A stretch of 64,000 nucleotides of DNA from a virus: the IMG/VR virus record IMGVR_UViG_3300020392_000009, positions 1 through 64,000 of that record. The stretch is one strand, 5' to 3'. The notes below the pieces were generated by a model. The model was not told where the DNA came from and searched no databases. It worked only from the letters and a program-made list of their open reading frames with translations. Made by a program: the position numbers and the translations under genes. This document shows, piece after piece, positions 29,770 to 63,999 of the stretch; position 1 is the first letter of the stretch, and every line of letters begins with the position of its first letter.

Positions 29770-30336
29770 TTATTCCTCCAATTCTTTTCTCCAATTTTGA
29801 GACTCTCTCATTTCTTCTACTTGTTCGGGTGTAAGATACATAGCAGGGTGAATATTTGCTCCCATCATACCGAATCTTTCGATTATTTCTTTTTGCTTTT
29901 TATTAACAAATTGTTTTACTTGTGGATTTTCTTCAAAGGTCTTTATTTCAAAATGAGGGGGGTCGCCATATTGACCCAAAGTATAACCGTAAATAACATT
30001 CGTAGGAATATTAAATAAATAATCTTCTCCTAATCTTTCTTTATCTTGTTCATCAATACCAAAATATGTAATTGCATCTATGTTAATATCTACGGGGTTT
30101 CCGTCAAAATCTTCTCCGCCAAAATCGCCATCTACTAAATCTCTTAATGCCACATCGCCATCAATAGTCAGTGAATATTCTTTTGACATATATGTAATAT
30201 ATCCTCCAGAATCAAAAAATACCTTACTGTCTTTCCCGTATATTCTTTTGAGTTCGTCTAATATCTCTTTAGTTAAATCATCAATATATTTTTGAGCCGA
30301 AGCCCTATCCATTCTTTTTAATATATCAAACCACAT
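29770..30336 (-). CDS. acidic hypothetical protein with N-terminal WxDILK tag
   Basis: Starts MWFDILKR. Confidence 0.6.
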   Translation of the reverse strand: MWFDILKRMDRASAQKYIDDLTKEILDELKRIYGKDSKVFFDSGGYITYMSKEYSLTIDGDVALRDLVDGDFGGEDFDGNPVDINIDAITYFGIDEQDKERLGEDYLFNIPTNVIYGYTLGQYGDPPHFEIKTFEENPQVKQFVNKKQKEIIERFGMMGANIHPAMYLTPEQVEEMRESQNWRKELEE

Positions 30337-30341
30337 AACAA

Positions 30342-31004
30342 TCAATAATCCTTTATCATAGTAGTTATTCCTTTATACACCATTTCGGGGTCTGATTTTG
30401 CTGATACAATATATTTAAAACAAGGTATTCCCTTATCATTAAGTTGCCTCATACCATAAGAGAACGGCTCGAATATCTCATGTTTATCTATGGGCTTTTC
30501 ACTTTTATATTTATCTCCCCAAATGTCATATTTATTAGCCCAAATACCAACTGCCATAGGATAATCCGAATCTTTTTTCTTTCTACCAGTAGGCCAACGG
30601 CTAGCAACAATAGTATCTACTAAAAATTTCCATGCTACTTGGTGGTCTAAGTTTGATGGGTTATCTAAGTGTCTATGGTCTATCATAAATATAACATACT
30701 TTACTCTACGGGTTTGCATGTCTTTTACCCATTCTTTCCAATAAATCGCCTCTCCTCCAATATCAGCACTTTTTATTGTATGAGAGTCCCCATCTAATTT
30801 TATAGTTTTTCTAGAAGCCCTATGCAATCCCACCGTTCTTTTATTTATCTGAGGAACTTCTCCTCTAGTTCTTAATTGATAACTTAAGGTTGTTTTACCA
30901 ACCATAGTAGCACCATAAACACCAAAATTAATTGCGTGAATTTTTTTGTAAAAACCTATTATGGCTTCACCAACTAGTATGGCAAAGCCTGTCATTATTG
31001 ACAT
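30342..31004 (-). CDS. Ras-superfamily (Arf-like) small GTPase
   Basis: G1 GATMVGKT, G2 RTVG, G3 DIGG, G4 NKYD, G5 SAK; hydrophobic N-terminal helix. Confidence 0.85.
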   Translation of the reverse strand: MSIMTGFAILVGEAIIGFYKKIHAINFGVYGATMVGKTTLSYQLRTRGEVPQINKRTVGLHRASRKTIKLDGDSHTIKSADIGGEAIYWKEWVKDMQTRRVKYVIFMIDHRHLDNPSNLDHQVAWKFLVDTIVASRWPTGRKKKDSDYPMAVGIWANKYDIWGDKYKSEKPIDKHEIFEPFSYGMRQLNDKGIPCFKYIVSAKSDPEMVYKGITTMIKDY

Positions 31005-31009
31005 TAAAA

Positions 31010-31546
31010 TCACCCGAAGTATTTTTCTAATATTTTATCTATATGAAAAATCATTTCATTTTCAGTATCTATGTTGATAGGTAAACCAATAGCAGAAGCA
31101 ATATATGTTGCATTGAGATGAGTTAATCCATCATCAATTTCATCTTTCAAATTAACTATCAATTCCTTAACTCTAGAATCAGGTAAATATTTGTAATCTA
31201 TATTATCAAGAGAAATGCCTCTGGGCATTCCCATTTCTTTTTTGTTTCTTATATTTCTATTATCGGTGTATTCTCTATCGCCTTCTAGCCATTTCTCTTT
31301 ATTTGTTTTCAAGGCTTGCTTTATCATGGGTTTATCTTTTAATTTAATTCTATCACGGGAAGAACCAAAAATAGCATAAATTAATGCTTCATCTAAAGAA
31401 GGAGTCCAATATTCGGTATCTTCTTTTCCTTGTGTTCCTTGAAATAACTTATTGTAAGTATTAATGTAAGTTTCTGTTGGGTAATCATTTGAATCAAAAA
31501 TAGTAGATTGTATTTTGTAAGGTGATTTGAGAATGTCTTTCCACAT
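31010..31546 (-). CDS. WxDILK-tagged protein, possible ADP-ribosyltransferase-like fold
   Basis: Starts MWKDILKS; KLFQGT...YWTPSLDEALIYA resembles ART strand 1/2 motifs (function low confidence). Confidence 0.45.
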   Translation of the reverse strand: MWKDILKSPYKIQSTIFDSNDYPTETYINTYNKLFQGTQGKEDTEYWTPSLDEALIYAIFGSSRDRIKLKDKPMIKQALKTNKEKWLEGDREYTDNRNIRNKKEMGMPRGISLDNIDYKYLPDSRVKELIVNLKDEIDDGLTHLNATYIASAIGLPINIDTENEMIFHIDKILEKYFG

Positions 31547-31547
31547 A

Positions 31548-31766
31548 TTAATGACTCCAAATATCTTTAGCCCTCTCTATAATCCAACCCATTATATTAA
31601 TGTCAAAGACTCCCATAATATTACCAACTAAGAACATAGACAAAGTAGAAAAACCTCCCCAAAACCATGCTCTCATTTTCAAAAAGAAAATGTCTGCTGA
31701 GTGCGCTCTAGATTGATTATAGGCGTAGTCAGAATCAGAAAAGCCCATTATATCTCCAAGAACCAT
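31548..31766 (-). CDS. small membrane protein
   Basis: Hydrophobic AWFWGGFSTLSMFLVGNIMGVF segment; GGGTGG RBS. Confidence 0.6.
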   Translation of the reverse strand: MVLGDIMGFSDSDYAYNQSRAHSADIFFLKMRAWFWGGFSTLSMFLVGNIMGVFDINIMGWIIERAKDIWSH

Positions 31767-31777
31767 TTAGCCACCCC

Positions 31778-32167
31778 TCATTGAAGGACTGCTAAAAACT
31801 CATTACTAACGGTATTTTCATCGTTTTCATTCTGATTTGCTGAATAGGTAAAACTAGTATTATATTGCTTTGCGCTTTCAGCCATCTTTCTTCTCTGTTG
31901 GTCATCCCTAGCCTTTCTTTCCCAAAACGCAGAAATCTTTCTATCTAGTAGCCAAATTTCTATCTTGTCATTTAGGGCTAAATCAAACAAAGCCTTCATT
32001 ACCATAATTGCTCCTATTGTTCCTAGTCCAAATAATACAGAATGTGCTAAAGCACCATAAGGAAAACCAGTTCCTATTTTAGCATAAGCAAATACATTAG
32101 CCCCACTTACTGCTCCAACAAAAAGTATAGTCATTACTAATCTAGTATCTTGATTTAAAACCGCCAT
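31778..32167 (-). CDS. two-TM membrane protein (holin-like candidate)
   Basis: Two hydrophobic helices then charged tail; GAGG RBS. Confidence 0.55.
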   Translation of the reverse strand: MAVLNQDTRLVMTILFVGAVSGANVFAYAKIGTGFPYGALAHSVLFGLGTIGAIMVMKALFDLALNDKIEIWLLDRKISAFWERKARDDQQRRKMAESAKQYNTSFTYSANQNENDENTVSNEFLAVLQ

Positions 32168-32176
32168 TGTAAAACC

Positions 32177-33457: not shown

Positions 33458-34843
33458 TCAAAGTAGATTTGTAATCTTACCCTGTCCTCTAAAGTATGAA
33501 CAACCAGTTTCACCAATAGTTCGGTAAAGTGCTTGGTTTCCTAGAGTTCCAACACCGAATGGGTTTCCGTTACTAATACCATCTTCAAAGTATTGAGTTG
33601 GTTTCATAACTGATAACCACAAATGGTCAGTATCTAGAATCAACATATCAGAAAGTCCAGTAGATAGAGAGTGGTGCTTTGTTGATGGCATAGCCGCAAC
33701 AGGAATTAGTGGGATATCGTAATAAGTAGAAACTCTAAATCCAACTTCTTGACCCTTTACACCACGAACACCGTTTACGGTTGGCACAATTTCTTTACCG
33801 TCCATGAATCTTTCTTGTGCTTGTAGCAAATCACTCAATGTTTGTAGAGTATCATATCCAGTTAGTATAACTTTTGGAGAACCACCGTTTTGTCGAATCT
33901 CTCTTAGAGTTTGGTTAATCAAACTTAGAGTCAAAGACCTTTGGCCACTTGCTGAGTAAGTTCCGTCATTTACAACTGCATTCATGAAAGAAGAGTTTGT
34001 TCCTGCTCTATCGCTGTTACCGAATAGAGTAGAAGTTTCTGCCTTTCCATTTGTCAAATCAGTATCGTCAAATGTTCCATTCTTAATCAAGTCGTTTGCT
34101 TTCATGTTTTGTAGTTCTGCGTTGCTTGAAACAATCTTTAGTAGAGAAGTATAGTTTCTTTCAATTGTAGTAACGCCCGAAGTAATTCCTCCATCAAAGT
34201 CATAGGCTTCTAGAGGCATAACTAGCATTTGGTTCTGAACTTCTGCATGGTGCTTACCCATATCTTCACGCATTTGCGCTCTAATGTCGCCAATACCATC
34301 ATCAATTTGTGCAAGTTCCATAGCAAGTTCGCTGAACTCAAATTGATGTGCAATAATCTTTGGGCTTGTAAATAGGGTAGAATACTTTGGTGCAATAGAA
34401 AACAATCCATCAGCATTAGTTCCTAGTTTAGCATTTTCAGGAACACCACCAATTAAATCTGCTTTAAGTGAACTTGCTCCAACAAGTGCATCAGAGTTTG
34501 ATGCTGTAGAATCAAGGTCAATAGATAGTGAATTTCCGCTACCACCAGCAGGTCTTTCTACCAATACTCTCCAACCACTTGAAACATAAGGTCTCTTTGA
34601 AATAACTGAAAGTGCATTACATTCTCTGTTTAGCATTGACCAAACTTTTTGACCAAATACTCGGTTATACAAAGCAGACCTATCTCCTATTGATGAAGTT
34701 CCGCTTCCTACTCCTAATGTGGTATCATGGCCACTGTGTAGTGCTTGAACTGCACCACTTTGTTTTAGCAATTGACCGCTAATGCCCGATAATCCGTATG
34801 TCTGTCTTTCTAAATCTGCTATTGTGTTAATATATCCTGTCAT
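33458..34843 (-). CDS. major capsid protein (HK97 fold)
   Basis: Follows protease-scaffold; YNRVFGQKVWSMLN, PKIIAHQFEFSE, GGSPKVILTG, GKITNL terminus like halovirus/magrovirus MCPs. Confidence 0.88.
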   Translation of the reverse strand: MTGYINTIADLERQTYGLSGISGQLLKQSGAVQALHSGHDTTLGVGSGTSSIGDRSALYNRVFGQKVWSMLNRECNALSVISKRPYVSSGWRVLVERPAGGSGNSLSIDLDSTASNSDALVGASSLKADLIGGVPENAKLGTNADGLFSIAPKYSTLFTSPKIIAHQFEFSELAMELAQIDDGIGDIRAQMREDMGKHHAEVQNQMLVMPLEAYDFDGGITSGVTTIERNYTSLLKIVSSNAELQNMKANDLIKNGTFDDTDLTNGKAETSTLFGNSDRAGTNSSFMNAVVNDGTYSASGQRSLTLSLINQTLREIRQNGGSPKVILTGYDTLQTLSDLLQAQERFMDGKEIVPTVNGVRGVKGQEVGFRVSTYYDIPLIPVAAMPSTKHHSLSTGLSDMLILDTDHLWLSVMKPTQYFEDGISNGNPFGVGTLGNQALYRTIGETGCSYFRGQGKITNLL

Positions 34844-34844
34844 C

Positions 34845-36140
34845 TTAATAACCTCCTACCATTTTGTGAATCTCTGACCAATCCATTTCAGCCAAATCTT
34901 CCATACTTGGGAGTTCTTCTTCTGCCGCCTTTTGTGCCTTTAGAATTGTTTCTTTTTCAGCAGTCAAAGACTTTCTTAGTTGAGTAAACTCATCTTTTAG
35001 AGATGCTATTTCGGCTTGAGCATCATATTGTGACTTTGCCAAAACATTTTCTCGGTTTGCTTTTTCTGCGTTAAATCTTGCACTAAATTGCTTTTCTAGG
35101 TTATCTAGAGCAATCTTTTCTAGTTGCTCTTGTCGGAAAGACTCGTATGCTTTCTCGATATTTAGGTTAGAAAGGTTTAGTGTATCTAATTCATTATTGT
35201 TAAATGCTTTAACAACAGGAAGTCCACTTGGCTTAGGATTGCCATTATCAATAACAATTCTATCAGCAGGTTCTCCAATTTCGACACCTGCTCCGTCTAA
35301 TGTAGCAACATAGGCTTTATCTGCCATTTTGTCACCATATGCACCTCTTTCCATGTCATCGGTAGGGACATCTTGCATTCTTTCCATGTCTTTCATTCTT
35401 TCCATGTCTTTCATCCTTTCCATGTCTTTCATAGATTCTTTTTCATCATCCATGTTTTCCATCATATTCTCATCTTCCATAGACTCTTTCATGGATTCTT
35501 TATCCTCCATCATTTCAGTGTCCATCATTTCGGCTTCTTCTTTTCGTAGCGTATTGACTTGCTCCATTAGAGTGTCAAGTTCCGCCAATGCTTTTTCTAA
35601 CTTGCTCATATTTTTCACCTGTTTATCTTGCTTTAAAATATCAAATCTTGCTTCGGGATTTATTCCTTTTTCACAAATTGTTACCTCATGCAATTCCAGT
35701 TTGCTTATTTCATTGTAATCTCCTAACTCCGGATGACTTTTCTTTACTTTTTGTAATGCCTGTCCTCCTATGCTAAATGACCTCAATGAACCTTTTCTTA
35801 CGCCTCTTCCTATTTCTTTGGCTTTTTCTATATCATCTCTTAACTTAATTACTACGAAGAAACCAACATCATCTACTTCTGTTTTCCACAATCTCCCCGT
35901 TTTATCTCGATATGATTTTACTACTTCTCCAACTTGAACATTTGAGTGATTTGTCATTACATTTCTAAATTTTGGATTCTGCATATATTTTACTACTGCT
36001 TCTTCTAGAGCCTTTAGTGTAATTAAATCGTTTTGTTTGTCTACGATTTCTATGCTTGCATATCCTCCAATCATTAAATCTTGATTACTTTTTAAGATGC
36101 TAAAGTCGTTGGCTCTATTACTTATCACCGCAGAACTCAT
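34845..36140 (-). CDS. prohead protease (HK97-family) fused to scaffold domain
   Basis: GYAS..VDKQND, NHSNVQVG (His), SFSIGG (Ser), LHEVTICEKGINPEA; acidic coiled-coil C-terminal half ending MDWSEIHKMVGGY. Confidence 0.9.
   Translation of the reverse strand: MSSAVISNRANDFSILKSNQDLMIGGYASIEIVDKQNDLITLKALEEAVVKYMQNPKFRNVMTNHSNVQVGEVVKSYRDKTGRLWKTEVDDVGFFVVIKLRDDIEKAKEIGRGVRKGSLRSFSIGGQALQKVKKSHPELGDYNEISKLELHEVTICEKGINPEARFDILKQDKQVKNMSKLEKALAELDTLMEQVNTLRKEEAEMMDTEMMEDKESMKESMEDENMMENMDDEKESMKDMERMKDMERMKDMERMQDVPTDDMERGAYGDKMADKAYVATLDGAGVEIGEPADRIVIDNGNPKPSGLPVVKAFNNNELDTLNLSNLNIEKAYESFRQEQLEKIALDNLEKQFSARFNAEKANRENVLAKSQYDAQAEIASLKDEFTQLRKSLTAEKETILKAQKAAEEELPSMEDLAEMDWSEIHKMVGGY
35379..35432 (-). 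repeat. 3 x 18-bp coding tandem repeat (MKDMER)
   Basis: TCTTTCCATGTCTTTCAT twice exact, third copy with one mismatch, in scaffold linker. Confidence 0.9.
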
Positions 36141-38701: not shown

Positions 38702-38950
38702 TTAGAACTCATATGTATCTCCGGCTTGGCCGTAACCTACATTTGTTCCTTCTTTTTGACTTTCCGGAACATTTTCCTCTTCTTTTGCTTTAGGTCTTTT
38801 TAGTTTCACTGCTTCATTTTTATCTTCAGAGGGAAGCCTATTATTATCTGTAAGAGATTGATGTAGTATTTCTTTAACTTCTTTGGCCTTCTCTATGGTC
38901 ATAGAAATGACTCTTTCTTTCTTTGTTACTCTTTCCGGCATATACATCAT
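38702..38950 (-). CDS. hypothetical head-region protein
   Basis: 82 aa coupled ORF. Confidence 0.55.
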   Translation of the reverse strand: MMYMPERVTKKERVISMTIEKAKEVKEILHQSLTDNNRLPSEDKNEAVKLKRPKAKEEENVPESQKEGTNVGYGQAGDTYEF

Positions 38951-39177
38951 CCCATACTGTCTACCATTTTATGAATTTCGCTCCATTCCATGCCACTTAC
39001 TTCTTCCTTAGTATCTATTACTTTCATCGTAGGAGATGGGCTATTTACAACAACAAGACCGGATTTCATTAATAGATTATCGTCATTGTAAACCGTTCTT
39101 TCTAAGTTTTCTATCTTAGCAGTAAGGGCTTTTATTATCTCAAGTAGTTCTTTATTAATTGATTCTTCTTCACTCAT
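38947..39177 (-). CDS. mini-scaffold-like protein
   Basis: Coiled coil; C-terminus MEWSEIHKMV nearly identical to scaffold end MDWSEIHKMV. Confidence 0.6.
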   Translation of the reverse strand: MSEEESINKELLEIIKALTAKIENLERTVYNDDNLLMKSGLVVVNSPSPTMKVIDTKEEVSGMEWSEIHKMVDSMG

Positions 39178-41252: not shown

Positions 41253-41477
41253 CTAGAATGGAATATTTTCTTTTTTTCCTCTCTGTTTAGGTGGAAGAGT
41301 TATCACATCGGGGATATCCGCACTACTAGGCCTTGATTTTGGTGTAGTGTCTTTTGGCAGTCCTACACTAAAATCTCTATTTTTAGTAGTCTTTCTACTT
41401 TCGTTATTATTAGCGGCTCTTACCTGTGCCAACTCTTTTCTTAGTCTTATTTCTTTTTGTCTATTATCTTCGGTCAT
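41253..41477 (-). CDS. hypothetical protein
   Basis: 74 aa, ATGA-coupled to portal. Confidence 0.55.
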   Translation of the reverse strand: MTEDNRQKEIRLRKELAQVRAANNNESRKTTKNRDFSVGLPKDTTPKSRPSSADIPDVITLPPKQRGKKENIPF

Positions 41478-49351: not shown

Positions 49352-49359
49352 AATTATCC

Positions 49360-54378: not shown

Positions 54379-54695
54379 TGTAACTTCTCCTGCATTTGGT
54401 ATAAATCGTATAGGTGGCGTTCAAAGGCATTTTTCTTACGCAGTAAATTACTTCTTTTTGGTTCTTCACTACTATTTACTCCTGCTATTATAGATTCTAA
54501 ATCTTTAATTAATTTTTGATAAGACTTTATGTATTTTCTAAGATATGTTCTTAATCCAATGTCCTCCGCCAGTTCTAAACTCCAATCCACATATTCATCT
54601 CCTGTTCTATCTTCTAAACGCTCAAGAGATTCCTTTAATTGTGATAAATCTTCTTTTAATATATCTTTCCAACTCATTGTAATTTCTCCTGCATT
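54356..54695. repeat. 41-bp direct repeat (54356-54396 and 54655-54695) flanking one tagged gene
   Basis: 38/41 identical by hand alignment; covers MQEKLQ-stop/RBS/MSWK[ND]ILK junction. Confidence 0.85.
54375..54677 (-). CDS. tagged helical hypothetical protein
   Basis: Starts MSWKDILK. Confidence 0.65.
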   Translation of the reverse strand: MSWKDILKEDLSQLKESLERLEDRTGDEYVDWSLELAEDIGLRTYLRKYIKSYQKLIKDLESIIAGVNSSEEPKRSNLLRKKNAFERHLYDLYQMQEKLQ

Positions 54696-56729: not shown

Positions 56730-56739
56730 TCCTTTGTAA

Positions 56740-56910
56740 TCAATCGTTTTCTTCTTTATCCTTTTTCTTTTTACCACGCTTTTTTCCCCCATAAGTTATG
56801 TTAAATAATTTTCCTGAAACTGCCGAAGGAGAAGTAGTAGTGACTGCTCCCGCTTCTTTCTCTATACTTTCCTTATTAGTCTTTTCTTTAAGAATGTCTT
56901 TCCACTTCAT
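56740..56910 (-). CDS. small tagged protein (56 aa) missing from ORF track
   Basis: Read by hand: MKWKDILKEKTNKESIEKEAGAVTTTS...KKRGKKKKDKEEND. Confidence 0.7.
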   Translation of the reverse strand: MKWKDILKEKTNKESIEKEAGAVTTTSPSAVSGKLFNITYGGKKRGKKKKDKEEND

Positions 56911-56914: not shown

Positions 56915-57574
56915 TCACTTATGCCACCTAAGCGAGAATTCCGTGTCTGCGTTAATTCCCGACTTTTTTGCTATTTCTTTAAAAAGAATATTTTGTTCTC
57001 TAACAAATAGTGCTTCAATAGAATAATAAGAAGGATATTTTAATGCTATTTCTGAAATTGTCTCAAGTATTAAAACAGTTTTTCCATTTTTATAAACTTG
57101 TAGGCCATTTATGCTAAATATTTCGTTGGTGTCCTTTGTCTTATTAAAGGTTCTTTCAATTCTATAATAAGTCCCATTTATCTCAATATTTTCATTGTCA
57201 CTTTTTTCTTCTTTAAGCATTTCTAACGCCTTGCAAGCGACACTTTCCGGAATATTATCGGGTTCGTAAAAATGATATATTAAGAATTCTACTATAGGAA
57301 AACTATAGTCTCTATTATTTCTTATAACAAAACTTTTGCCGTCGCCATCAGCAATAGGCTCAACCTCTATTATCAGTTCACCATATTTACTGTAGTTCTC
57401 ATGCCAACCCTCTTTCCATGTTTTTTCAACAACGGGCTTGTAATTTTTTAATTTGTTCGCTAATCTTTGTAGTTCTCTTTTACAATCATCATCTTCGATA
57501 TCTATATCAATATCTTCTATCTCTTTTACACGGCCTTGCGTGATTACATTTTTAAGAATATCTTTCCATTTCAT
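56915..57574 (-). CDS. constant-leader/variable-body paralog 6
   Basis: MKWKDILKNVITQGRVKEIEDIDIDIEDDDC. Confidence 0.8.
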   Translation of the reverse strand: MKWKDILKNVITQGRVKEIEDIDIDIEDDDCKRELQRLANKLKNYKPVVEKTWKEGWHENYSKYGELIIEVEPIADGDGKSFVIRNNRDYSFPIVEFLIYHFYEPDNIPESVACKALEMLKEEKSDNENIEINGTYYRIERTFNKTKDTNEIFSINGLQVYKNGKTVLILETISEIALKYPSYYSIEALFVREQNILFKEIAKKSGINADTEFSLRWHK

Positions 57575-58170
57575 TAGAAAGCCCCATATCTCTCTAGTGT
57601 GTCAATAGCCCAAGTCTGTTCTAAATGCCGAAGTAACTCTTTAATAGTGTTTTTATTTTCTTTTATTCTCTCATCGGTAAGAACACCCGTCACACTAACT
57701 TTTGAGTCTGGACCGCTACCCCTTCTTTCCCAACTTATGAAAACCTCTAACGCAACATCTCCATATTCAGTATCTCTTTTTTCTCCTAACCTTTCAAATA
57801 AAGTATAAATTTTAACAGCATATATGAATTCTTGAACACCAAAATCGGCAACAATAAAACCATGTTTCCGATAGGTTTCCTTAGCCCTATTTTGCCTGTT
57901 TATGCTTTCAGTGTTTATGGTGTATTGTTCAGTTAAATCTTTTTTAAGAAGGCAAGCGGTTTCTTCATCTAAGTCTGGGACAGGTTCATAAAGCCATCCC
58001 TCGATTAGTAAGTTGGATGCTGGTTTTTTAATAGAAACACTACTAAGAATCTTAATAAGCCTGTCATACCATCTACGACAATCATCTTCATCTATATCAA
58101 TATCTATATCTTCTATCTCTTTCACTCTCCCTTGAGTAATAGCATTTTTTAAGATATCTTTCCAATCCAT
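57574..58170 (-). CDS. constant-leader/variable-body paralog 5
   Basis: MDWKDILKNAITQGRVKEIEDIDIDIDEDDC. Confidence 0.8.
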   Translation of the reverse strand: MDWKDILKNAITQGRVKEIEDIDIDIDEDDCRRWYDRLIKILSSVSIKKPASNLLIEGWLYEPVPDLDEETACLLKKDLTEQYTINTESINRQNRAKETYRKHGFIVADFGVQEFIYAVKIYTLFERLGEKRDTEYGDVALEVFISWERRGSGPDSKVSVTGVLTDERIKENKNTIKELLRHLEQTWAIDTLERYGAF

Positions 58171-58838
58171 TAATATCCCCCAAACCGTTTAGATATCACA
58201 TACAAAAAAGAACCCTCTCCATAATTAACATCTGTTCTAGTAGTATGTTCTGAAATTACATTACTTATTGCTCTATCTACATACTTAACATAATCATCAA
58301 AGAATACTCTATTATCACAATGTTTAGAAAATTGTTTTATCATTTTTGCATATGGCTCATAGAAAGAAATTAACTTATTATAAACTTCTTTATCTGTATC
58401 ATTAGGATTAGTAAATTCTTTTATTAAATTATCCGTTGATGCTTCCATACTATCTTCAAAAAGCCCAAAAAATACCGCCCATTCTTGATATTTGGGTAGT
58501 TTTACCGAAATACTAAAAACATAGTCCCTTCCCTTATTGACATAAAAAATAAATATTGGAAAACGACCATCTTCCTTCCTAAGTTTAAAACTAATACCAT
58601 CATAATTTTCTAATTTGTCTTTTAGTTCACAAGCCAGTTCTTCTGAAACTAAATTTATATCTCCGTATGTTGCAAATTTTCTGTGCAATCTGTGTGTAGG
58701 TTTGTATGATTTTATTATTTGGTGTAATCGTATTAGCCACCTTCTGCAATCATCATCTTCTATATCAATATCTATATCCTCAATTTCTTTCACTCTACTT
58801 TGAGTAATAACATTTTTTAAGATATCTTTCCAAACCAT
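58170..58838 (-). CDS. constant-leader/variable-body paralog 4
   Basis: MVWKDILKNVITQSRVKEIEDIDIDIEDDDC. Confidence 0.8.
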   Translation of the reverse strand: MVWKDILKNVITQSRVKEIEDIDIDIEDDDCRRWLIRLHQIIKSYKPTHRLHRKFATYGDINLVSEELACELKDKLENYDGISFKLRKEDGRFPIFIFYVNKGRDYVFSISVKLPKYQEWAVFFGLFEDSMEASTDNLIKEFTNPNDTDKEVYNKLISFYEPYAKMIKQFSKHCDNRVFFDDYVKYVDRAISNVISEHTTRTDVNYGEGSFLYVISKRFGGY

Positions 58839-59527
58839 TAATATCCCCCGAAACTGCTCTTTATAGCCCTTTCAAAAACATCATCGTCAAGGTTAATATT
58901 ATCGTCAAATCTTCCGCCTAATTGCTCAGAACGCATTAACAGCACTTTTTTCACCCTTCTTGCTACATGACTTATATAATTATCAAAGAATATTCTATTC
59001 TTACAATGTTTAGAAAATTGTTTTATCATTTTTCCATATGGCTTATAGAAAGATACTAAGTCATCAAAAAGTTGTAGAAATGGTTCATCCGGTTTAATAA
59101 ATTCCTCTAGCAATATTCGAGGAAAACTACCACCAGCATGTGTTGTTATCGACCATGCCCTATTTTTAGGCTGTCCTGCCAAAATTATAAGAGTATGGCC
59201 TAAAGTTCTAGGGTTATAAAAAAATCCAGCCCCATCTTCTACCTCATCATCAAGACTGGGAGCAAAGCCGAGATATACCGCAGAACCATCATGGTTTTCT
59301 AATTTGCTTTTTATTAGACAAGCCTGTTCTTCTGTAACTCCAGTTATATCTCCATTTGTTACAACCTTACCATGCATTTTGTGTGTAGGCTTGTATGATT
59401 TTATTATTCGTTCTAATTGTATTAGCCATCTGCTACAATCATCGTCGTCAATATCTATATCAATATCCTCTATCTCTTTTACCCTACTTTGAGTAATAAC
59501 ATTCTTGAGAATATCTATCCAATTCAT
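58838..59527 (-). CDS. constant-leader/variable-body paralog 3
   Basis: MNWIDILKNVITQSRVKEIEDIDIDIDDDDC. Confidence 0.8.
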   Translation of the reverse strand: MNWIDILKNVITQSRVKEIEDIDIDIDDDDCSRWLIQLERIIKSYKPTHKMHGKVVTNGDITGVTEEQACLIKSKLENHDGSAVYLGFAPSLDDEVEDGAGFFYNPRTLGHTLIILAGQPKNRAWSITTHAGGSFPRILLEEFIKPDEPFLQLFDDLVSFYKPYGKMIKQFSKHCKNRIFFDNYISHVARRVKKVLLMRSEQLGGRFDDNINLDDDVFERAIKSSFGGY

Positions 59528-59528
59528 A

Positions 59529-60209
59529 TTACTCCCCCCCCTTATACTTACCATTAAATTTCTTTCTTGCTTCTTTCGATGAATCCGGTATTTTTCTAAC
59601 CCTTTCCATGTAATCCTGCATCAATCTTCTAGTGCCTGTAAAATCCCAAGAACAATGCCTATATAACCTCTCAAGAAATCTAAATAAATTTTTATCGGAA
59701 TCAGCAAAATCGTCAAAATCTACCCTTTCAATATGAATTTCAATAAACGATTCGTCTAATTCTTCAAAAGTATTTCTTGGCCAAGATTCCATAAATCTAA
59801 GACTAAGGCTAAGATAAGGTTTTATAGTCCGTTCATACCTATAAGGGTCGCCTTCTTCTTCAACAACAGATAGTCCCATTCTTACTATACTTTCTCCTCT
59901 TTTATTGCTTCCCTCAATCCTAGTATGAGAATTGAAAGGAATAGGCAAGTCTCCCTTTTTATTTACTACCAAAGTTTTTTCTATCGCTTCTTTAAATTCA
60001 CAGGCTTCTGCTTCTGTTATACCTTTACCAACCTTATTGTCTGTTAAGTTATCCATTCCCGCGTCTTTCTTAGCAAAGCCTACAATAATATCTTGAAGTT
60101 GTTTAAGCCATCTAAGACAATCATCATCTTCTATATCAATGTCTATATCCTCAATTTCTTTTACCCTACTTTGGGTAACAGTTTCCTTTAAGATATCCTG
60201 CCACCTCAT
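59529..60209 (-). CDS. constant-leader/variable-body paralog 2
   Basis: MRWQDILKETVTQSRVKEIEDIDIDIEDDDC. Confidence 0.8.
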   Translation of the reverse strand: MRWQDILKETVTQSRVKEIEDIDIDIEDDDCLRWLKQLQDIIVGFAKKDAGMDNLTDNKVGKGITEAEACEFKEAIEKTLVVNKKGDLPIPFNSHTRIEGSNKRGESIVRMGLSVVEEEGDPYRYERTIKPYLSLSLRFMESWPRNTFEELDESFIEIHIERVDFDDFADSDKNLFRFLERLYRHCSWDFTGTRRLMQDYMERVRKIPDSSKEARKKFNGKYKGGE

Positions 60210-60214
60210 ATTAA

Positions 60215-60859
60215 TCACTCATGCCAACTAAATCCAAATTCTCTTGCGTCATAATATCCTGAGTATTTATATATTCCCATAGTATCAATTTTATTATCGT
60301 TTTCATCATAAATACCAGTAAAGAACTCACCATTTGACCACGATAAAATTATAGAAAAGGGTTTACCTTTCTCAGCAATAATGAGTTCATTGATATTATA
60401 TTGATAGTCAAAATTAAAACTTCTCATTATTTCCCAATCTACTCCATCGTGTTCAAAATCATATATTTTATATGTATCACCTACAGCCGATTCATTTCTT
60501 TGATGGCTTTTTAAAATTTCCAATGCTTTACAGGCTACGGGTTCGGGAACAGGATTATAGAGGAATTTAGCACTTTCAAAAAACTCTGAAAATTGTTTAT
60601 TTAATTTTTTTTGAGATAATGAAAAATTTTTTTTATTGACCGCAGGATTGTTATCCTCTATTATTTCAAAATATTCTGCATTTCTTGGCCAACCTGCCTT
60701 CCACCGTTCTTCTAAAAGAAGATTGTAATTTTTCAATTTATTTGCCATTTGCTGTAGTTTTCTATTACAGTCATCATCCTCAATATCAATATCTATATCT
60801 TCGATTTCCTTAACCCTATTTTGGGCTATCGTTTCTTTAAGGATATCTTGCCATGACAA
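60215..60859 (-). CDS. constant-leader/variable-body paralog 1
   Basis: MSWQDILKETIAQNRVKEIEDIDIDIEDDDC. Confidence 0.8.
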   Translation of the reverse strand: MSWQDILKETIAQNRVKEIEDIDIDIEDDDCNRKLQQMANKLKNYNLLLEERWKAGWPRNAEYFEIIEDNNPAVNKKNFSLSQKKLNKQFSEFFESAKFLYNPVPEPVACKALEILKSHQRNESAVGDTYKIYDFEHDGVDWEIMRSFNFDYQYNINELIIAEKGKPFSIILSWSNGEFFTGIYDENDNKIDTMGIYKYSGYYDAREFGFSWHE

Positions 60860-60860: not shown

Positions 60861-61622
60861 TCAATCCCTCAAATGATTAGACCAACTCTTACTAACCCAA
60901 TCAAAATCTTTAGGGAACGGGGAAATAAATTCTCCTAATATTTGAGCAAGGGCATTCATTTCTATCGGGTATATCTTGTCGCCTTCGGGCAGACTTCTAT
61001 CAATAATCATTCTTTCAATGACTCCTAATTTGACCATATCTTGGGTTACATTAAAGGTGTAATTTATCTTAAATTGCTTATCTTTTACTAGTTCTTTGAG
61101 AGTATTTTTGACCTTTTTTTCTGTTTCGTTTATTTTAACTCTATCTATTTCACTATCCATAGAATCTTGTAAATCTTCTCTTAATTCATCTAAGGCAGAA
61201 TATAAGACTTTTCTAACTTCAGACATCGCTTCATCAGTAACCAACTTTGCTATGTTTTTTATTACTTCTATTTGTTTAGGAGTAAATTTAAATTGTTCTT
61301 TTTCGGGGTCGGGTTCTTCTTCCAATACTGCTATTTCTCCTAAATCTGCTATCTCCTGCAAATCTTCTTGAAACTGCTCATCTTGTAATTTATTTTGAAA
61401 TACATTAAGAGGCGCTGATAAAGCCTCTAACATAACTTCCTCTATCTTAGGAACAGATAAAAATTCAGTTCCTTCTAATTCTCTAATGTATTTGCTTACT
61501 AAATTTTTAGAGGTTTCTATGTAAATACCCCTACTTTTCGCTTGACTAGCCAAATTCTGCAAAACTTTTAACAATCTATTCATAAAAGGATTTCTTTCTT
61601 TTAATATATATTTCCAACTCAT
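60861..61622 (-). CDS. helical protein tagged at N-terminus and possibly C-terminus
   Basis: MSWKYILK ... VSKSWSNHLRD. Confidence 0.65.
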   Translation of the reverse strand: MSWKYILKERNPFMNRLLKVLQNLASQAKSRGIYIETSKNLVSKYIRELEGTEFLSVPKIEEVMLEALSAPLNVFQNKLQDEQFQEDLQEIADLGEIAVLEEEPDPEKEQFKFTPKQIEVIKNIAKLVTDEAMSEVRKVLYSALDELREDLQDSMDSEIDRVKINETEKKVKNTLKELVKDKQFKINYTFNVTQDMVKLGVIERMIIDRSLPEGDKIYPIEMNALAQILGEFISPFPKDFDWVSKSWSNHLRD

Positions 61623-62197
61623 TTTTTATCACCTAAATACTTGTGATGATACTTCTTCTTACCAACCTGCCTACCCTCTCCTGAAAACGGATTATATGGG
61701 CGATTTCTTGCTTTCATTCTAGCCCTTGTTGGCATTGGGTTAGTTTTGATACCTCCCATTCCAAGCCCTCTCTTTTTTCCTTTTCTTTGTTGATTTGCCT
61801 TTGGTTGAGGTTGTCCGTAACTAGGTGAATCTGTTACATTACCAAACTCTTCTTCTAGTTCTTGCATTTCTATATCTCTAACTTTTTTAGAATCTCTTGG
61901 ATTTCTATTTTGTCTTTTGAGCCTAAGTTCTTCTCTTTCACGCTTTTTTCTACCTCTATTTATTAGTCGCATTTCTTTTTCGTTAAAAAAACTACCTTTC
62001 CCTTTTGCTTTCTTTTGACCTAAGCGTTCTTCTGTTTGTCGTTGTTTAGTTTCTCTATTAATTTGAGTTTGCTCAAATTTACTAGGTCGCCTAAAACCAC
62101 CAAAAAGGCTGTCTTTGCCTTTAAAATAAGATTCAGCATCTTTAGTATAGGGATATTTTTCATCCTTACTTCTCTTCAAGATATTTTTCCAACTCAT
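61619..62197 (-). CDS. very basic, probably disordered tagged protein
   Basis: MSWKNILK; K/R-rich. Confidence 0.65.
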   Translation of the reverse strand: MSWKNILKRSKDEKYPYTKDAESYFKGKDSLFGGFRRPSKFEQTQINRETKQRQTEERLGQKKAKGKGSFFNEKEMRLINRGRKKREREELRLKRQNRNPRDSKKVRDIEMQELEEEFGNVTDSPSYGQPQPKANQQRKGKKRGLGMGGIKTNPMPTRARMKARNRPYNPFSGEGRQVGKKKYHHKYLGDKK

Positions 62198-62302: not shown

Positions 62303-62683
62303 TTATTCATCTCTTGTATATTCTAAATCATATTTTAAATCGCCTAAAACAGAAGCAAATATTTTATTTTTCATCAAATCTTGCATGATATCATACTTCT
62401 TCGTTCCATCAAGTATGCTTCTTATTTTTCTTTCTAATATACGCTCTGTTTGCTTCCTATCATAAAACCCTTTCTTAACCAGTTGTTGTGCAGGGGTAGT
62501 CAATATTTGTAATACACTTTCCGGTATTTTATCTACTTCTTCCATGAGGTTTTTTACTATTTCTTTAGTAGCCATATAACTTTCTTTTCCTCCATCGGGA
62601 TTTCTCCTACCGCTACCGTCGGATAATCTATAAGGTGTATCTTTGATACTTATTTTTTTCTTTATCTCATCTTTCCATGTCAT
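62303..62683 (-). CDS. tagged hypothetical protein
   Basis: Starts MTWKDEIK. Confidence 0.65.
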   Translation of the reverse strand: MTWKDEIKKKISIKDTPYRLSDGSGRRNPDGGKESYMATKEIVKNLMEEVDKIPESVLQILTTPAQQLVKKGFYDRKQTERILERKIRSILDGTKKYDIMQDLMKNKIFASVLGDLKYDLEYTRDE

Positions 62684-63042
62684 GATACATCACCTGTAAA
62701 GCCCCTACCCCTGCTCCTTAGTCTTTTCAAATCCTTTGCGTCAATATCACCGTCATTATCAGTATCTAATTTCTTTTGGCCACCAACAAGTTTCTTTTTC
62801 TTTTTACCCATCTTTTCTTCTTCTTTCATTAATCTTGTAGGTAAATCGTCATACGCTCCTTCTATTACTTGAACTGCTTCTTCTACATCGTCGAGAGATA
62901 TATTCAAAGCCCTAGCAATACTTAGATTACTAGGTGGGGAATCGGGATATTTCGCCATCCTTTTATCTACATACGCTTTTACTTTCTTAGCATTTAGCAA
63001 CTTAGTAGTTCTCTTAACTTTCAGTATATCTTGCCATGCCAT
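62680..63042 (-). CDS. tagged protein with HTH-like segment and EF-hand-like loop
   Basis: MAWQDILK; IARALNISLDDV; DTDNDGDIDAKD. Confidence 0.65.
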   Translation of the reverse strand: MAWQDILKVKRTTKLLNAKKVKAYVDKRMAKYPDSPPSNLSIARALNISLDDVEEAVQVIEGAYDDLPTRLMKEEEKMGKKKKKLVGGQKKLDTDNDGDIDAKDLKRLRSRGRGFTGDVS

Positions 63043-63043
63043 G

Positions 63044-63184
63044 TTAATCCCCTTTAATTTTATCAAGATATTCTTTTATTCTTTTGGCTTGGCTTTCATG
63101 CATCTCAACTGCTTTGCCTAGTTCTTCGATTATTTTTTCTAGTTCTGCTACACTACTTTTCTTTATTTCTTCTTTCCATGTCAT
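63044..63184 (-). CDS. small tagged helical protein (46 aa) missing from ORF track
   Basis: Read by hand: MTWKEEIKKSSVAELEKIIEELGKAVEMH...KGD. Confidence 0.65.
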   Translation of the reverse strand: MTWKEEIKKSSVAELEKIIEELGKAVEMHESQAKRIKEYLDKIKGD

Positions 63185-63189
63185 ATTAA

Positions 63190-63405
63190 TCAATCCCTCT
63201 TTCTAAGTCGTTTAATTTCTGTTATATCTGCTTGACATAATTTTATTATTTTTTGAAGTGGTTTTATTAAAAATTTACTACCTTCTTTTTTTACTTTCTC
63301 ATCTAAATCAGGTGTTGCCACAAGTTCGTCATATTCATCTAATAATTCTCTTATGGTGTTTTTTCTCCAACCTATGTTCTTTTTAATAATATCTTTCCAT
63401 GCCAT
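63190..63405 (-). CDS. tagged hypothetical protein
   Basis: Starts MAWKDIIK after GGTGA. Confidence 0.65.
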   Translation of the reverse strand: MAWKDIIKKNIGWRKNTIRELLDEYDELVATPDLDEKVKKEGSKFLIKPLQKIIKLCQADITEIKRLRKRD

Positions 63406-63418
63406 ATTATTCACCTAA

Positions 63419-63718
63419 TCAAACCGGATATATTATTACACATTTATCGTTGTCGTCAAGATTTCTTGGAATTTGACCTGTGTTTTGAAGAATACTAATA
63501 GCACTAGGATTATTGGGAGCATATTCTATTCTTAAATCGCCATCTGTTTCTTCAATGATAATTCCTTCGGCAATCCTATCAATTTGTATTGCCTTTGTCA
63601 TCATATGTTCATCAATATAAACTGTGCTAGATTTATCAAATGTGTTTAATTTTGCTATCAATTCACCTACTGTCATTCCAACTTTTCTTTGCTTTCTTAT
63701 CTCTTCTTTCCATGTCAT
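63419..63718 (-). CDS. tagged hypothetical protein
   Basis: MTWKEEIRK tag ahead of MTVGELIAKLNTFD body. Confidence 0.65.
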   Translation of the reverse strand: MTWKEEIRKQRKVGMTVGELIAKLNTFDKSSTVYIDEHMMTKAIQIDRIAEGIIIEETDGDLRIEYAPNNPSAISILQNTGQIPRNLDDNDKCVIIYPV

Positions 63719-63753
63719 ATTAATTTCTCCTAAAATTTTGTGGCGGATTTTTT

Positions 63754-63999
63754 TTACCTCTTTCTAACTTTGCCACCATCTAAAATAACCCTCGCATAAA
63801 AACGATTAAATTCTTGCAGATGTTTGTTAAATCCTCCTGCATCATCTTTCAATGCCATATCACTCATTTGAGAAATTATCTTATCTGCTTCTTTTCTTTC
63901 CTTCTCACTTAAATCATATGTCTTCATATCATCAACAACTCTTTCAACGGTTGAAAGAAGCCTTGTTGATTTCTTTCGTTGGTTATCATTTTTTAATAT
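63754..63999 (-). CDS. partial ORF cut by window edge, probably another tagged gene
   Basis: Open frame begins ...ILKNDNQRKK at the edge; 81 aa to stop. Confidence 0.55.
   Translation of the reverse strand: MLKNDNQRKKSTRLLSTVERVVDDMKTYDLSEKERKEADKIISQMSDMALKDDAGGFNKHLQEFNRFYARVILDGGKVRKR

What the first reader, a model, noticed from the sequence alone, without database searches (positions are those of the whole stretch)
29770..63999. A shared 'MSWKDILK' peptide tag on about 30 mostly unrelated proteins: candidate capsid cargo-loading system of an archaeal virus
Seen: the motif M-x-W-x-[DEN]-[IVE]-[LI]-[KR] begins 25 ORFs (one variant reads WKYILK). By left coordinate they are 29770, 31010, 43161, 43492, 44061, 44946, 45440, 45705, 51965, 54100, 54375, 56740, 56915, 57574, 58170, 58838, 59529, 60215, 60861, 61619, 62303, 62680, 63044, 63190 and 63419. 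It is internal in 44402, C-terminal in 48848, 55338 and weakly 60861, and the window edge probably cuts through another copy. Apart from the six paralogs, the bodies are unrelated: 46-707 aa, including a phosphatase, basic proteins and acidic proteins. I saw no tag on replication or tail genes. All six Leu codons and all three Ile codons occur in the tags (e.g. ATA TTA, ATT CTT, ATT CTC, ATC TTG, ATA CTG, ATC CTA), so the constraint is on the peptide. Known: T4 internal proteins share an N-terminal capsid-targeting sequence of about 10 aa that is removed by the prohead protease, and IPI* counters a host restriction enzyme. Inference: this is an analogous but much larger and position-flexible addressing system that loads a library of proteins into the prohead for DNA condensation or delivery into the host. 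I do not know of this being described for archaeal viruses.
Basis: partly seen in the sequence, partly recalled or inferred. Interest (0 to 1): 0.95.

Follow-up and report, generated by a model that had tools for sequence, protein, structure and literature searches.

The report
Scaffold-mimicking address tag on virus proteins
About 29 otherwise unrelated, fast-changing proteins of this ocean archaeal-type tailed virus carry the same eight-residue peptide, which copies the tail of the virus's own capsid scaffold, so it most likely loads them into the capsid, though loading itself is untested.

Summary
In the 91.7-kb genome, M-x-W-x-[DEN]-[IV]-[LI]-K begins about 25 ORFs. It is internal or C-terminal in 3-4 more, and one further copy straddles the window edge. 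Shuffled proteins give 0.3 matches. Every copy lies on the minus-strand arm at 29.7-64.0 kb, around TerL, portal, protease-scaffold and MCP. None is on tail or replication genes. Synonymous codons vary freely, so the constraint is on the peptide.

New here:
- Four complete relatives carry 8-19 N-terminal tags each in the same layout. A sister group has none.
- The tag is almost the only conserved part of a hypervariable gene set. On two domains shared with marine bacterial phages it is an N-terminal add-on.
- A matrix trained only on the C-terminal tails of 22 distant protease-scaffold proteins ranks 23 tags, plus this genome's scaffold and mini-scaffold tails, as its top 25 of 29,550 positions.

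Best reading (about 0.55): a procapsid-addressing tag that mimics the scaffold's docking tail and loads a swappable cargo set. Encapsidation, the receptor and clipping are untested; the complex prediction gave no verdict. No paper found describes the tag. This scan noted the same tag earlier on other magrovirus genomes.

The parts
33458..34843 (-). Major capsid protein (461 aa), untagged. The N-arm has an invariant YINTIADLE...QLLK(27).
   Evidence: Pfam SU10_MCP and phrog_24667. 26-sequence alignment A1. N-termini of 80 relatives.
34845..36140 (-). Prohead serine protease (S78) fused to a scaffold-like C-terminal half (431 aa). The tail motif MDWSEIHKMVGGY is encoded with its M-to-K core at 34863-34886.
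   Evidence: Pfam PF04586 over residues 19-172. The tail M-[DE]-W-x-[DE]-I-H-K-M is conserved in 50 variants and, as M-[ST]-W-x-[DE]-[IV], in distant homologues.
38947..39186 (-). Mini-scaffold (79 aa) ending in MEWSEIHKMV, the same tail as the protease-scaffold (core at 38968-38991).
   Evidence: The tail is conserved in 31 variants. phmmer links it to the C-terminal ends of protease-scaffold homologues. Group B genomes have the same pair.
41474..43108 (-). Portal protein, untagged.
   Evidence: Pfam Phage_portal, phrog_18178 at E 5e-61.
47425..48846 (-). Terminase large subunit, untagged.
   Evidence: phrog_38 at E 8e-58, Pfam Terminase_6N/6C.
29770..30336 (-). Tagged ORF, 188 aa, acidic; begins MWFDILK.
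   Evidence: (top score).
31010..31546 (-). Tagged ORF, 178 aa; begins MWKDILK.
43161..43499 (-). Tagged basic protein, 112 aa, pI 11.6; begins MSNWMDILK. From residue 10 on, the body is a full-length phrog_7595 domain.
   Evidence: phrog_7595 at E 1e-30, residues 10-95 against profile positions 2-96 of 96. Weak hit to phrog_220, 'minor head protein and DNA pilot'. 55-77% identical to marine bacterial phage proteins that lack the tag.
43492..44064 (-). Tagged PAP2-family phosphatase, 190 aa; begins MSWMDILK.
   Evidence: Pfam PAP2 at E 4e-11.
44061..44402 (-). Tagged basic protein, 113 aa; begins MSWQDIIK.
   Evidence: Its ortholog in G001 is also tagged.
44402..44962 (-). ORF with an internal tag (KK-SWKDILK-S, codons 44807-44824) between an N-domain and an unrelated C-domain.
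   Evidence: The N-domain (residues 7-44) matches the N-terminus of a 1236-aa protein that ends in an S78 protease (E 7.6e-9). In L001 the same N-domain plus tag is joined to the body of gene 44061.
44946..45434 (-). Tagged ORF, 162 aa; begins MSWLNVIK.
45440..45709 (-). Tagged basic protein. The tag reads INWRNILK with no canonical start (ATT AAT TGG overlaps the upstream TAA). The body is a phrog_14910 domain that starts right after the tag.
45705..45917 (-). Tagged basic protein, 70 aa, pI 11.7; begins MSWQDILK. The body is a full-length phrog_17747 domain.
   Evidence: phrog_17747 at E 2e-32, residues 9-69 against profile positions 3-63 of 63. 52-79% identical to pelagiphage, roseophage and HMO-2011 proteins.
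48848..49366 (-). 172-aa ORF ending in the tag-like KSWHLILKRY.
   Evidence: Rank 28 of 29,550 positions with the independent tag matrix. Not conserved in the G003 and G005 orthologs.
51965..54088 (-). Tagged 707-aa protein (TTG start, then NWLEILK). It is the one large tagged protein with weak orthologs in related genomes; those orthologs also begin with the tag or a tag-like peptide.
   Evidence: No family, fold or atlas match.
54100..54378 (-). Tagged ORF, 92 aa; begins MSWKNILK.
   Evidence: Part of the 41-nt repeat.
54375..54677 (-). Tagged ORF, 100 aa; begins MSWKDILK.
55338..56792 (-). 484-aa basic protein ending in KSWMDILRN, with a second tag-like site (AWQNLIK) at residue 342.
   Evidence: Orthologs end in a related K-M-W-Q-x-x-L-W-R.
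56740..56910 (-). Tagged ORF, 56 aa; begins MKWKDILK.
56915..60859 (-). Array of six paralogs (198-229 aa). Each starts with the tag inside a 31-residue near-invariant leader (tag, then ITQxRVKEIEDIDIDIEDDDC) followed by a divergent body.
   Evidence: Alignment A4 of 39 sequences. Homologues occur only on ~90-kb relatives. In the model, tag residues 4-11 are helical and the leader has low confidence. No fold match.
60861..61622 (-). Tagged ORF, 253 aa; begins MSWKYILK. Weak tag-like C-terminus.
61619..62197 (-). Tagged basic ORF, 192 aa; begins MSWKNILK.
62303..62683 (-). Tagged ORF, 126 aa; begins MTWKDEIK.
62680..63042 (-). Tagged ORF, 120 aa; begins MAWQDILK.
63044..63184 (-). Tagged ORF, 46 aa; begins MTWKEEIK.
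63190..63405 (-). Tagged ORF, 71 aa; begins MAWKDIIK.
63419..63718 (-). Tagged ORF, 99 aa; begins MTWKEEIR.
63754..64000 (-). ORF cut by the window edge. In the genome it runs to 64011 and begins MWKKILK. It is the most upstream tag.
   Evidence: rank 18.

Best explanation
The peptide M-x-W-x-[DEN]-[IV]-[LI]-K is a modular address tag that copies the core of the docking tail of the virus's own scaffolding proteins. That tail is the C-terminal M-[DE]-W-S-[DE]-I-H-K of the protease-scaffold fusion and of a 79-aa mini-scaffold.

While the procapsid assembles, the short amphipathic tag (W, I and L on one face) would occupy the same receptor site as the scaffold tail. By analogy with P22, phi29, 80alpha and herpesvirus scaffolds, that site is most probably on the inner face or N-arm of the major capsid protein. 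About 29 soluble proteins would thereby be enclosed together with scaffold and protease. The cargo includes very basic small proteins (plausibly DNA-associated), a PAP2 phosphatase, a six-member paralog array and many orphans. It is the fast-turnover, horizontally exchanged part of the genome. The tag is what stays constant.

Shown: the tag exists, its constraint is on the peptide, it is confined to this arm, it is conserved as a system across the lineage, it is an add-on to acquired domains, and it matches the scaffold-tail motif family.

Inferred: binding to the capsid protein, encapsidation, later clipping by the S78 prohead protease after the Lys (low confidence), and delivery into the host.
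For: 1. Scaffold mimicry. A 6-column matrix was built only from the C-terminal tails of 22 distant protease-scaffold homologues, none from this lineage. It ranks 23 tags plus this genome's own scaffold and mini-scaffold tails as the top 25 of 29,550 positions in the proteome. MSWQDI tags outscore the genome's own scaffold tail.

2. The scaffold tail is conserved in 50 protease variants and 31 mini-scaffold variants. The sister group B has the same two-protein arrangement. The tail is therefore an old functional element and the tags a later copy of it.

3. Location. 25 of 50 ORFs on the head-gene arm are tagged, against 0 of 93 elsewhere. Four complete relatives show 8-19 N-terminal tags in the same three zones: after the MCP, between portal and TerL, and upstream of TerL.

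4. The constraint is on the peptide, not the nucleotides.

5. Modularity. On phrog_7595 and phrog_17747 domains the family profile starts right after the tag. The bacterial-phage homologues lack the tag.

6. Links to head-internal proteins elsewhere. The N-domain of ORF 44402 is the N-terminus of a 1236-aa protein that ends in an S78 prohead protease. The body of 43161 weakly hits 'minor head protein and DNA pilot'.

7. Evolutionary pattern. Untagged head-arm genes have 60-89% orthologs in relatives, whereas tagged genes almost never have detectable ones. This is as expected for an exchangeable payload with a constant address.

8. Precedents. T4 CTS (PMC9958956), the N-terminal signal of P1 DarB (PMC9024508), and the shared C-terminal RIIK motif of the 80alpha scaffold and SaPI1 CpmB, which bind the same site on the capsid protein (PMC6893505).
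Against: There is no direct evidence that any tagged protein is in a particle.

With a matrix trained on tags alone, this genome's own scaffold tail scores only 6.3 bits (rank 48-49 of 29,550). It has S and H where tags have K/Q and L. The likeness is clear only at the level of the wider scaffold-tail family and partly rests on the initiator Met.

The tag is at the N-terminus while the scaffold motif is at the C-terminus, so equivalent docking is assumed, not shown.

Many tagged genes lie far upstream of TerL, next to the divergent switch region. They could be early or middle genes rather than late ones, and expression timing is unknown.

Within the lineage there is no visible co-variation between scaffold tail and tags: G004 has H-R-L in its scaffold tail but mostly K in its tags.
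Confidence: 0.55

Rival explanations
1. The tag is a short linear motif for a different hub that has nothing to do with the capsid interior, for example a host factor targeted during takeover, the virus's own Cpn60 chaperonin, or its ubiquitin-like conjugation system with the invariant Lys as acceptor. The likeness to the scaffold tail would then be convergent or incidental.
For: Most tagged genes are small orphans next to the divergent switch region, which is typical of takeover genes. The Ubl/E1/JAB region and the tags are both present in this lineage and both undetected in group B. Where K is replaced by R in the tag, a K often follows.
Against: The match to the scaffold-tail family covers six positions and puts 23 tags in the top 25 of 29,550 positions. 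Tags also sit on genes wedged between portal and TerL and just after the MCP. Two tagged bodies have links to head-internal multidomain proteins. The phyletic co-occurrence with the Ubl system rests on a single lineage split.
Confidence: 0.18
2. The motif is mainly a recognition and cleavage site for the S78 prohead protease (cut after hydrophobic-hydrophobic-Lys). Entry into the procapsid would be by some other means, or the proteins are processed outside a capsid.
For: The tag ends in I-L-K. Internal and C-terminal copies are preceded by another [VL]-[KL]-K (VKK-SWKDILK-S, VLK-SWMDILRN). The MCP N-arm has an invariant L-L-K near residue 27-31 in both group A and group B. The T4 CTS likewise ends in its protease's cleavage motif (PMC9958956).
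Against: No cleavage site is known for this protease. The FSILK and FDILK strings that flank the protease domain are conserved across the wider S78 family and FDILK lies inside the Pfam S78 match, so they are probably part of the fold and not evidence of cutting. A cleavage site eight residues from the N-terminus has no obvious use unless the octapeptide did something first. W and [DE], the most conserved positions, are upstream of any P4-P1 window.
Confidence: 0.12
3. The shared N-terminus is simply inherited. The genes would be diverged duplicates of one ancestor whose first codons are kept for expression reasons such as translation initiation or mRNA structure, or the tag DNA is a recombination site. 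It would not be a protein-protein signal.
For: There are paralog arrays (six here, similar arrays in G001 and G004). A 41-nt repeat spans the RBS and tag of two neighbouring genes. One relative has a deletion that joins two genes exactly at their tags.
Against: Third codon positions and Leu first positions vary freely while the peptide is kept. The tag also occurs internally and at C-termini. Tagged bodies belong to unrelated families of separate origin: PAP2, phrog_7595, phrog_17747, phrog_14910. Their homologues in bacterial phages lack the tag. A Trp codon at position 3 has no known role in initiation.
Confidence: 0.05

Closest known systems
Capsid-targeting sequence (CTS) of phage T4 internal proteins (Mullaney and Black 1996, as reviewed in PMC9958956)
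   Same: A roughly 10-residue N-terminal peptide shared by non-essential proteins that are built into the prohead core. It is portable to foreign proteins and ends in the prohead protease's cleavage motif. Some cargo is basic and some is enzymatic or anti-defence.
   Different: The review describes the conserved T4 CTS for IPII and IPIII only; here about 29 genes per genome (a fifth of all ORFs) carry the tag. The T4 protease gp21 and core protein gp22 are not homologous to the S78 protease-scaffold here (the gp21 family is from my own knowledge). Here the tag visibly copies the scaffold's own tail. A few copies are C-terminal or internal. Nothing here has been tested experimentally.
Shared C-terminal capsid-binding motif (RIIK) of the phage 80alpha scaffolding protein and SaPI1 CpmB (PMC6893505)
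   Same: A short terminal motif of the scaffold is copied on another protein, which then binds the same site on the capsid protein. Here the mini-scaffold and the protease-scaffold share a tail in the same way. The hydrophobic-hydrophobic-Lys ending (IIK versus ILK) even looks alike.
   Different: CpmB is a single hijacker protein that changes capsid size. Here the copy is placed at the N-terminus of dozens of the virus's own accessory proteins. Binding is not shown here.
C-terminal encapsidation signal of the HK97 maturation protease (Duda, Oh and Hendrix 2013, cited as reference 8 in PMC12749128; the paper itself is not held, so its content is from memory)
   Same: Same protease family (Pfam Peptidase_S78). 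A terminal segment of the protease directs it into the assembling prohead.
   Different: HK97 has no separate scaffold, because its delta domain is part of the MCP. No family of other proteins carrying the signal is known there.
N-terminal packaging signal of phage P1 DarB and the Dar antirestriction proteins (PMC9024508)
   Same: An N-terminal segment of no more than 30 residues is sufficient to send a reporter into the capsid. The cargo is injected and counters host defence.
   Different: No consensus is shared among the Dar proteins, and packaging is stepwise and depends on other Dar proteins. Here a sharp consensus is shared by all cargo.
Encapsulin cargo-loading peptides (from my own knowledge; not checked in a paper here)
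   Same: Short terminal peptides on unrelated cargo dock to the inner face of an HK97-fold shell.
   Different: Encapsulins carry no DNA, portal, protease or scaffold. The motifs are unrelated in sequence.

Membership tests
T4-type capsid-targeting sequence system | A short conserved N-terminal peptide shared by otherwise unrelated proteins encoded with the head genes | tested here: met
   23-25 N-terminal copies against 0.012 expected. Bodies are unrelated.
T4-type capsid-targeting sequence system | The peptide is sufficient and necessary for incorporation into the prohead | not testable with these tools
   Needs reporter fusions and particle purification. The single complex prediction returned no verdict.
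T4-type capsid-targeting sequence system | The peptide is removed by the prohead protease at a defined motif | not testable with these tools
   There are only suggestive strings: ILK at the tag end, K-flanked internal copies, and LLK in the MCP N-arm.
T4-type capsid-targeting sequence system | Homology of the machinery (gp21-type protease, gp22 core) | tested here: not met
   The protease matches Pfam Peptidase_S78 (HK97 type), with head maturation protease phrogs 23555 and 3244. It works like the T4 system but is not a member by descent.
Scaffold-tail mimicry (80alpha SP / SaPI1 CpmB type) | The same terminal motif on the scaffold and on a second protein | tested here: met
   Protease-scaffold and mini-scaffold share M-[DE]-W-S-[DE]-I-H-K-M-V. 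Tags match the scaffold-tail family matrix.
Scaffold-tail mimicry (80alpha SP / SaPI1 CpmB type) | Both proteins bind the same site on the major capsid protein | not testable with these tools
   Needs cryo-EM of procapsids or binding and competition assays.
HK97-type (S78) prohead protease with a terminal encapsidation signal | S78 protease domain | tested here: met
   PF04586 at E 6e-9 over residues 19-172. 608 homologues at E <= 1e-10.
HK97-type (S78) prohead protease with a terminal encapsidation signal | A conserved C-terminal tail distinct from the catalytic domain | tested here: met
Secretion or membrane signals (Sec, Tat, archaeal class III) | A hydrophobic core of 10 or more residues, a twin-arginine motif, or a prepilin-type cleavage motif after the N-terminus | tested here: not met
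   The tag is 8 residues, amphipathic and followed by polar or charged residues. The paralog leader is strongly acidic.
Magrovirus (tailed viruses assigned to Marine Group II archaea; Philosof 2017, PMC5434244) | A ~90-100-kb genome with a halovirus-like head module plus its own replication module, from marine metagenomes | tested here: met
   91.7 kb. MCP 23% identical to HVTV-1 and HCTV-1/5. RFC, ligase, helicase and Cpn60 on the other arm. Hundreds of relatives in Tara, JGI and ENA marine data. The host is not shown, and group assignment against the published trees was not made.

The most novel reading that the evidence does not exclude
This virus lineage devotes about a fifth of its genes to an exchangeable payload library. 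Any acquired domain, including domains taken from bacterial phages, becomes capsid cargo once it gains an eight-residue copy of the scaffold's docking tail. The tag DNA also serves as the junction at which cassettes are swapped. The capsid would then deliver a hypervariable set of DNA-coating proteins and effectors into one of the ocean's most abundant archaea. The packaged proteome would be readable from sequence alone.
Probability: 0.35. Interest if true: 0.9.

Novelty: new variant of a known kind. Interest (0 to 1): 0.78.

Why it matters
Capsid-targeting signals are known from a few model phages (T4, P1, HK97). In each case the signal covers one or a few proteins, and no archaeal virus is among them.

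If this tag works as proposed, three things follow. It gives a sequence-only way to list the packaged, and possibly injected, proteins of an abundant but uncultured group of ocean viruses. It shows how such a signal can arise, by copying the scaffold's docking tail. It also offers a very short natural handle for loading foreign proteins into HK97-fold shells.

The contrast between a constant tag and hypervariable bodies marks these genes as the likely front line of virus-host conflict in Marine Group II archaea, for which no culture system exists.

Tried and rejected
- **Complex prediction.** MCP (alignment A1) with a 56-aa tagged protein (alignment of 20 tag N-termini, A2) scored 0.00: no verdict, and no evidence either way.
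- **Cargo function.**
  - Pfam and PHROGs gave nothing for most tagged proteins.
  - The ESM Atlas gave no usable hit for the 707-aa and 484-aa proteins.
  - The PDB sequence search gave nothing for the 867-, 484- and 567-aa proteins.
  - The AlphaFold model of a paralog (pLDDT 70.6) had no Foldseek match at E <= 0.001 in PDB or BFVD.
  - The model of the 707-aa protein was poor (pTM 0.27), also with no match.
- **Co-variation between scaffold tail and tags within the lineage.** Uninformative. G004 has H-R-L in its scaffold tail but 12 K against 2 R in its tags.
- **Fetching contigs of distant protease homologues.** A single-protein scan with P0211 found nothing. An alignment-based scan then gave group B.
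- **Haloarchaeal relatives.** The HVTV-1 head-module proteins and protease tail show no equivalent tag.
- **FSILK and FDILK flanking the protease domain as autocleavage sites.** Rejected as evidence. Both are conserved across the wider S78 family and FDILK lies inside the Pfam S78 match.
- **Literature.** Searches for the motif strings and for magrovirus with capsid targeting found no description of the tag.

Full report
**What the window is.** The window is the first 64 kb of a 91,671-bp virus record. Genes at about 8-67 kb lie on the minus strand.
- They include tail genes (8-29 kb), a major capsid protein (33458-34843) and an S78 prohead protease fused to a scaffold-like half (34845-36140).
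- They also include a ligase-domain protein, a portal (41474-43108) and a large terminase (47425-48846).
- The plus-strand arm (68-91.6 kb and 1-8 kb) carries a UvrD-type helicase, a second ligase, RFC, a Cpn60 chaperonin and similar genes.
- The MCP is 23% identical to those of the haloarchaeal siphoviruses HVTV-1 and HCTV-1/5. It has more than a thousand relatives in marine metagenomes.
- This fits the published description of magroviruses (PMC5434244). The host is inferred, not shown.

- 23-25 of them are at ORF starts. One is internal (ORF 44402). Two are clearly C-terminal (ORFs 55338 and 48848).
- One further copy, MWKKILK, begins the ORF cut by the window edge at 63754-64011.
- Shuffling each protein gives 0.31 matches on average, and 0.012 at N-termini.
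- Half of the ORFs at 29-64 kb on this strand are tagged. None of 93 ORFs elsewhere is (p = 2e-14).
- All three Ile codons and all six Leu codons are used, and third positions carry about 0.2 bit. Selection therefore acts on the peptide, not on a nucleotide element.

**It is a property of a virus lineage.**
- Four complete relatives (MCP 64-70% identical; G001, G003, G004, G005) carry 8-19 N-terminal tags each.
- Nearly all of their tags are on the head-gene strand and fall in the same three zones: just after the MCP, between portal and TerL, and a long run upstream of TerL.
- In 80 loci around the MCP gene there are 78 hits on the gene strand against 3 on the other.
- 99 distinct N-terminal tags give the consensus M-[NST]-W-x-[DN]-I-[LI]-K. 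The spacing is M-x-W in 52, M-W in 34 and M-x-x-W in 13.
- A sister group has none (group B: TerL 36-37% and protease 37-39% identical, ~91-96-kb contigs). This holds both in 1 Mb of loci and in three near-complete genomes.

**The tag is the constant part of a variable gene set.**
- Untagged genes of the arm have 60-89% orthologs in the four relatives. Tagged genes almost never have a detectable ortholog beyond the tag, and none has a homologue in group B.
- The exceptions are the 707-aa protein, whose weak orthologs also start with the tag or a tag-like peptide, and the paralog array. The paralogs share a 31-residue near-invariant leader in front of divergent bodies.
- The tag is an add-on. 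For the basic proteins 43161 and 45705, the PHROG family profiles begin right after the tag (E 1e-30 and 2e-32).
- Their 52-79% identical homologues in marine bacterial phages (Celeribacter P12053L gp37, HMO-2011 gp63, roseophages, pelagiphages) lack the tag.

**Link to the scaffold.**
- The protease-scaffold ends in M-D-W-S-E-I-H-K-M-V-G-G-Y. A separate 79-aa helical protein ends in M-E-W-S-E-I-H-K-M-V.
- These tails are conserved in 50 and 31 variants.
- A search of 1.8 billion representative proteins shows that distant full-length homologues (37-60% identical) end in the same kind of motif, [ML]-[STD]-W-x-[DE]-[IV]-[HNE]-x-[LM].
- Group B also has the scaffold plus mini-scaffold pair.
- A 6-column matrix built only from 22 of those distant tails was run over all 29,550 positions of this proteome. 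It puts 23 tags and the two native scaffold tails in its top 25, and MSWQDI tags outrank the native tail.
- The reverse test is weaker. A matrix from 53 tags of the other four genomes finds all tags here as its top 28 hits, but ranks the native scaffold tail only 48-49 at 6.3 bits.
- The likeness is therefore real at the level of the motif family. It is looser for this genome's own tail, and part of it rests on the initiator Met standing in for the motif's Met.

**Most likely mechanism.**
- Scaffold tails in P22, phi29, 80alpha and herpesviruses dock on the inner face or N-arm of the capsid protein (summarised in PMC12749128).
- The 80alpha scaffold and the hijacker protein CpmB share a C-terminal RIIK motif and bind the same site (PMC6893505).
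- I therefore read the tag as a copy of the scaffold's docking core. It lets any protein carrying it be co-assembled into the procapsid. This is functionally like the T4 CTS (PMC9958956) and the P1 DarB signal (PMC9024508).
- Two observations tie tagged bodies to head-internal proteins elsewhere. The N-domain of ORF 44402 is the N-terminus of a 1236-aa protein that ends in an S78 protease (E 7.6e-9). The body of 43161 weakly hits 'minor head protein and DNA pilot'.
- One copy of each tagged protein totals about 5,200 residues, a small load for a capsid holding 92 kb of DNA.
- Clipping after the Lys is possible but untested. The tag ends in ILK, internal copies are flanked by K, and an LLK in the MCP N-arm is invariant in both groups.
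- The FSILK and FDILK strings around the protease domain are conserved across the wider S78 family and probably belong to its fold, so I do not count them.

**Rivals.**
- A hub unrelated to the capsid cannot be excluded. Many tagged orphans lie near the divergent switch region and their timing is unknown. The Ubl/E1/JAB genes are, like the tags, seen in this lineage and not in group B. Candidates are a host factor, the viral chaperonin, or the viral ubiquitin-like system with the tag's Lys as acceptor.
- A purely nucleotide, expression or inherited-leader explanation is contradicted by the codon data, by the internal and C-terminal copies, and by the unrelated origins of the bodies.

**What is missing.**
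- The complex prediction gave no verdict.
- Two tools that might have helped were unavailable.
- No cargo function beyond the PAP2 phosphatase could be assigned.

**Novelty.**
- Full-text searches found no description of this tag, and the magrovirus papers do not mention it.
- This scan has noted the same tag on other magrovirus genomes, and a follow-up there reached a similar reading.
- One earlier follow-up called the scaffold tail 'only loosely related' to the tag. The family-level matrix test here argues for a closer relation than that.
- I class the finding as a new variant of a known kind, capsid-targeting signals. It is unusual in scale, in its visible origin from the scaffold tail, and in occurring in an archaeal-type virus.

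Noticed in passing
L101 (HVTV-1, NC_020158.1) locus 37.6-45.9 kb = record 92.6-100.9 kb: At least 14 consecutive small ORFs (36-83 aa) at the right end of haloarchaeal virus HVTV-1 end in a shared C-terminal motif, [EQ]-x-F-W-[DE]-x-R. This is a different terminal tag on many small proteins of a cultured relative.
   Followed up: no
window 43161-43499 and 45705-45917: The bodies of two very basic tagged proteins are 52-79% identical to small hypothetical proteins of marine bacterial phages (Celeribacter P12053L, Roseobacter SIO1/CRP, pelagiphages, HMO-2011, cyanophages). This points to recent gene flow between bacterial phages and this archaeal-type virus, or leaves its host assignment open.
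   Followed up: partly
window 54356-54396 and 54655-54695; L001 near position 157: A 41-nt direct repeat (38 of 41 identical) covers the RBS and tag of two neighbouring tagged genes. In a 97%-MCP relative, the N-domain plus tag of ORF 44402 is joined directly to the body of gene 44061. Tag DNA seems to act as a junction for cassette gain and loss.
   Followed up: partly
window 45686-45709: The tag of ORF 45440 has no ATG, GTG or TTG. It reads ATT AAT TGG, with the upstream gene's TAA inside it. This suggests reinitiation at ATT or some other coupling.
   Followed up: no
window 36198-38687 and genome 82862-84397: There are two ATP-dependent DNA ligase-domain proteins. One is an 829-aa protein sitting between mini-scaffold and protease in the head module, with a segment similar to the N-terminal part of a 1232-aa protease-scaffold fusion from another virus. 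The other is a conventional 511-aa ligase in the replication arm.
   Followed up: partly
A Cpn60 chaperonin (Pfam) is preceded by a 76-aa ORF that looks GroES-like by eye. The Ubl-region ORFs are conserved in the tag-bearing lineage and not detected in group B.
   Followed up: partly
window 39170-39535: A conserved 121-aa head-module protein begins MTWDYY in all relatives. It starts like the tag (M-T-W-D) but lacks the I-L-K half. It is a core gene, not an accessory one.
   Followed up: no
window 33458-34843 (MCP residues 1-31): The MCP N-arm has the pattern Y-[IV]-x-T-[IV]-x-D-[LM]-E ... [QE]-L-L-K, conserved between group A and group B at 36% overall identity. It is a candidate docking helix, maturation site, or both.
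   Followed up: partly
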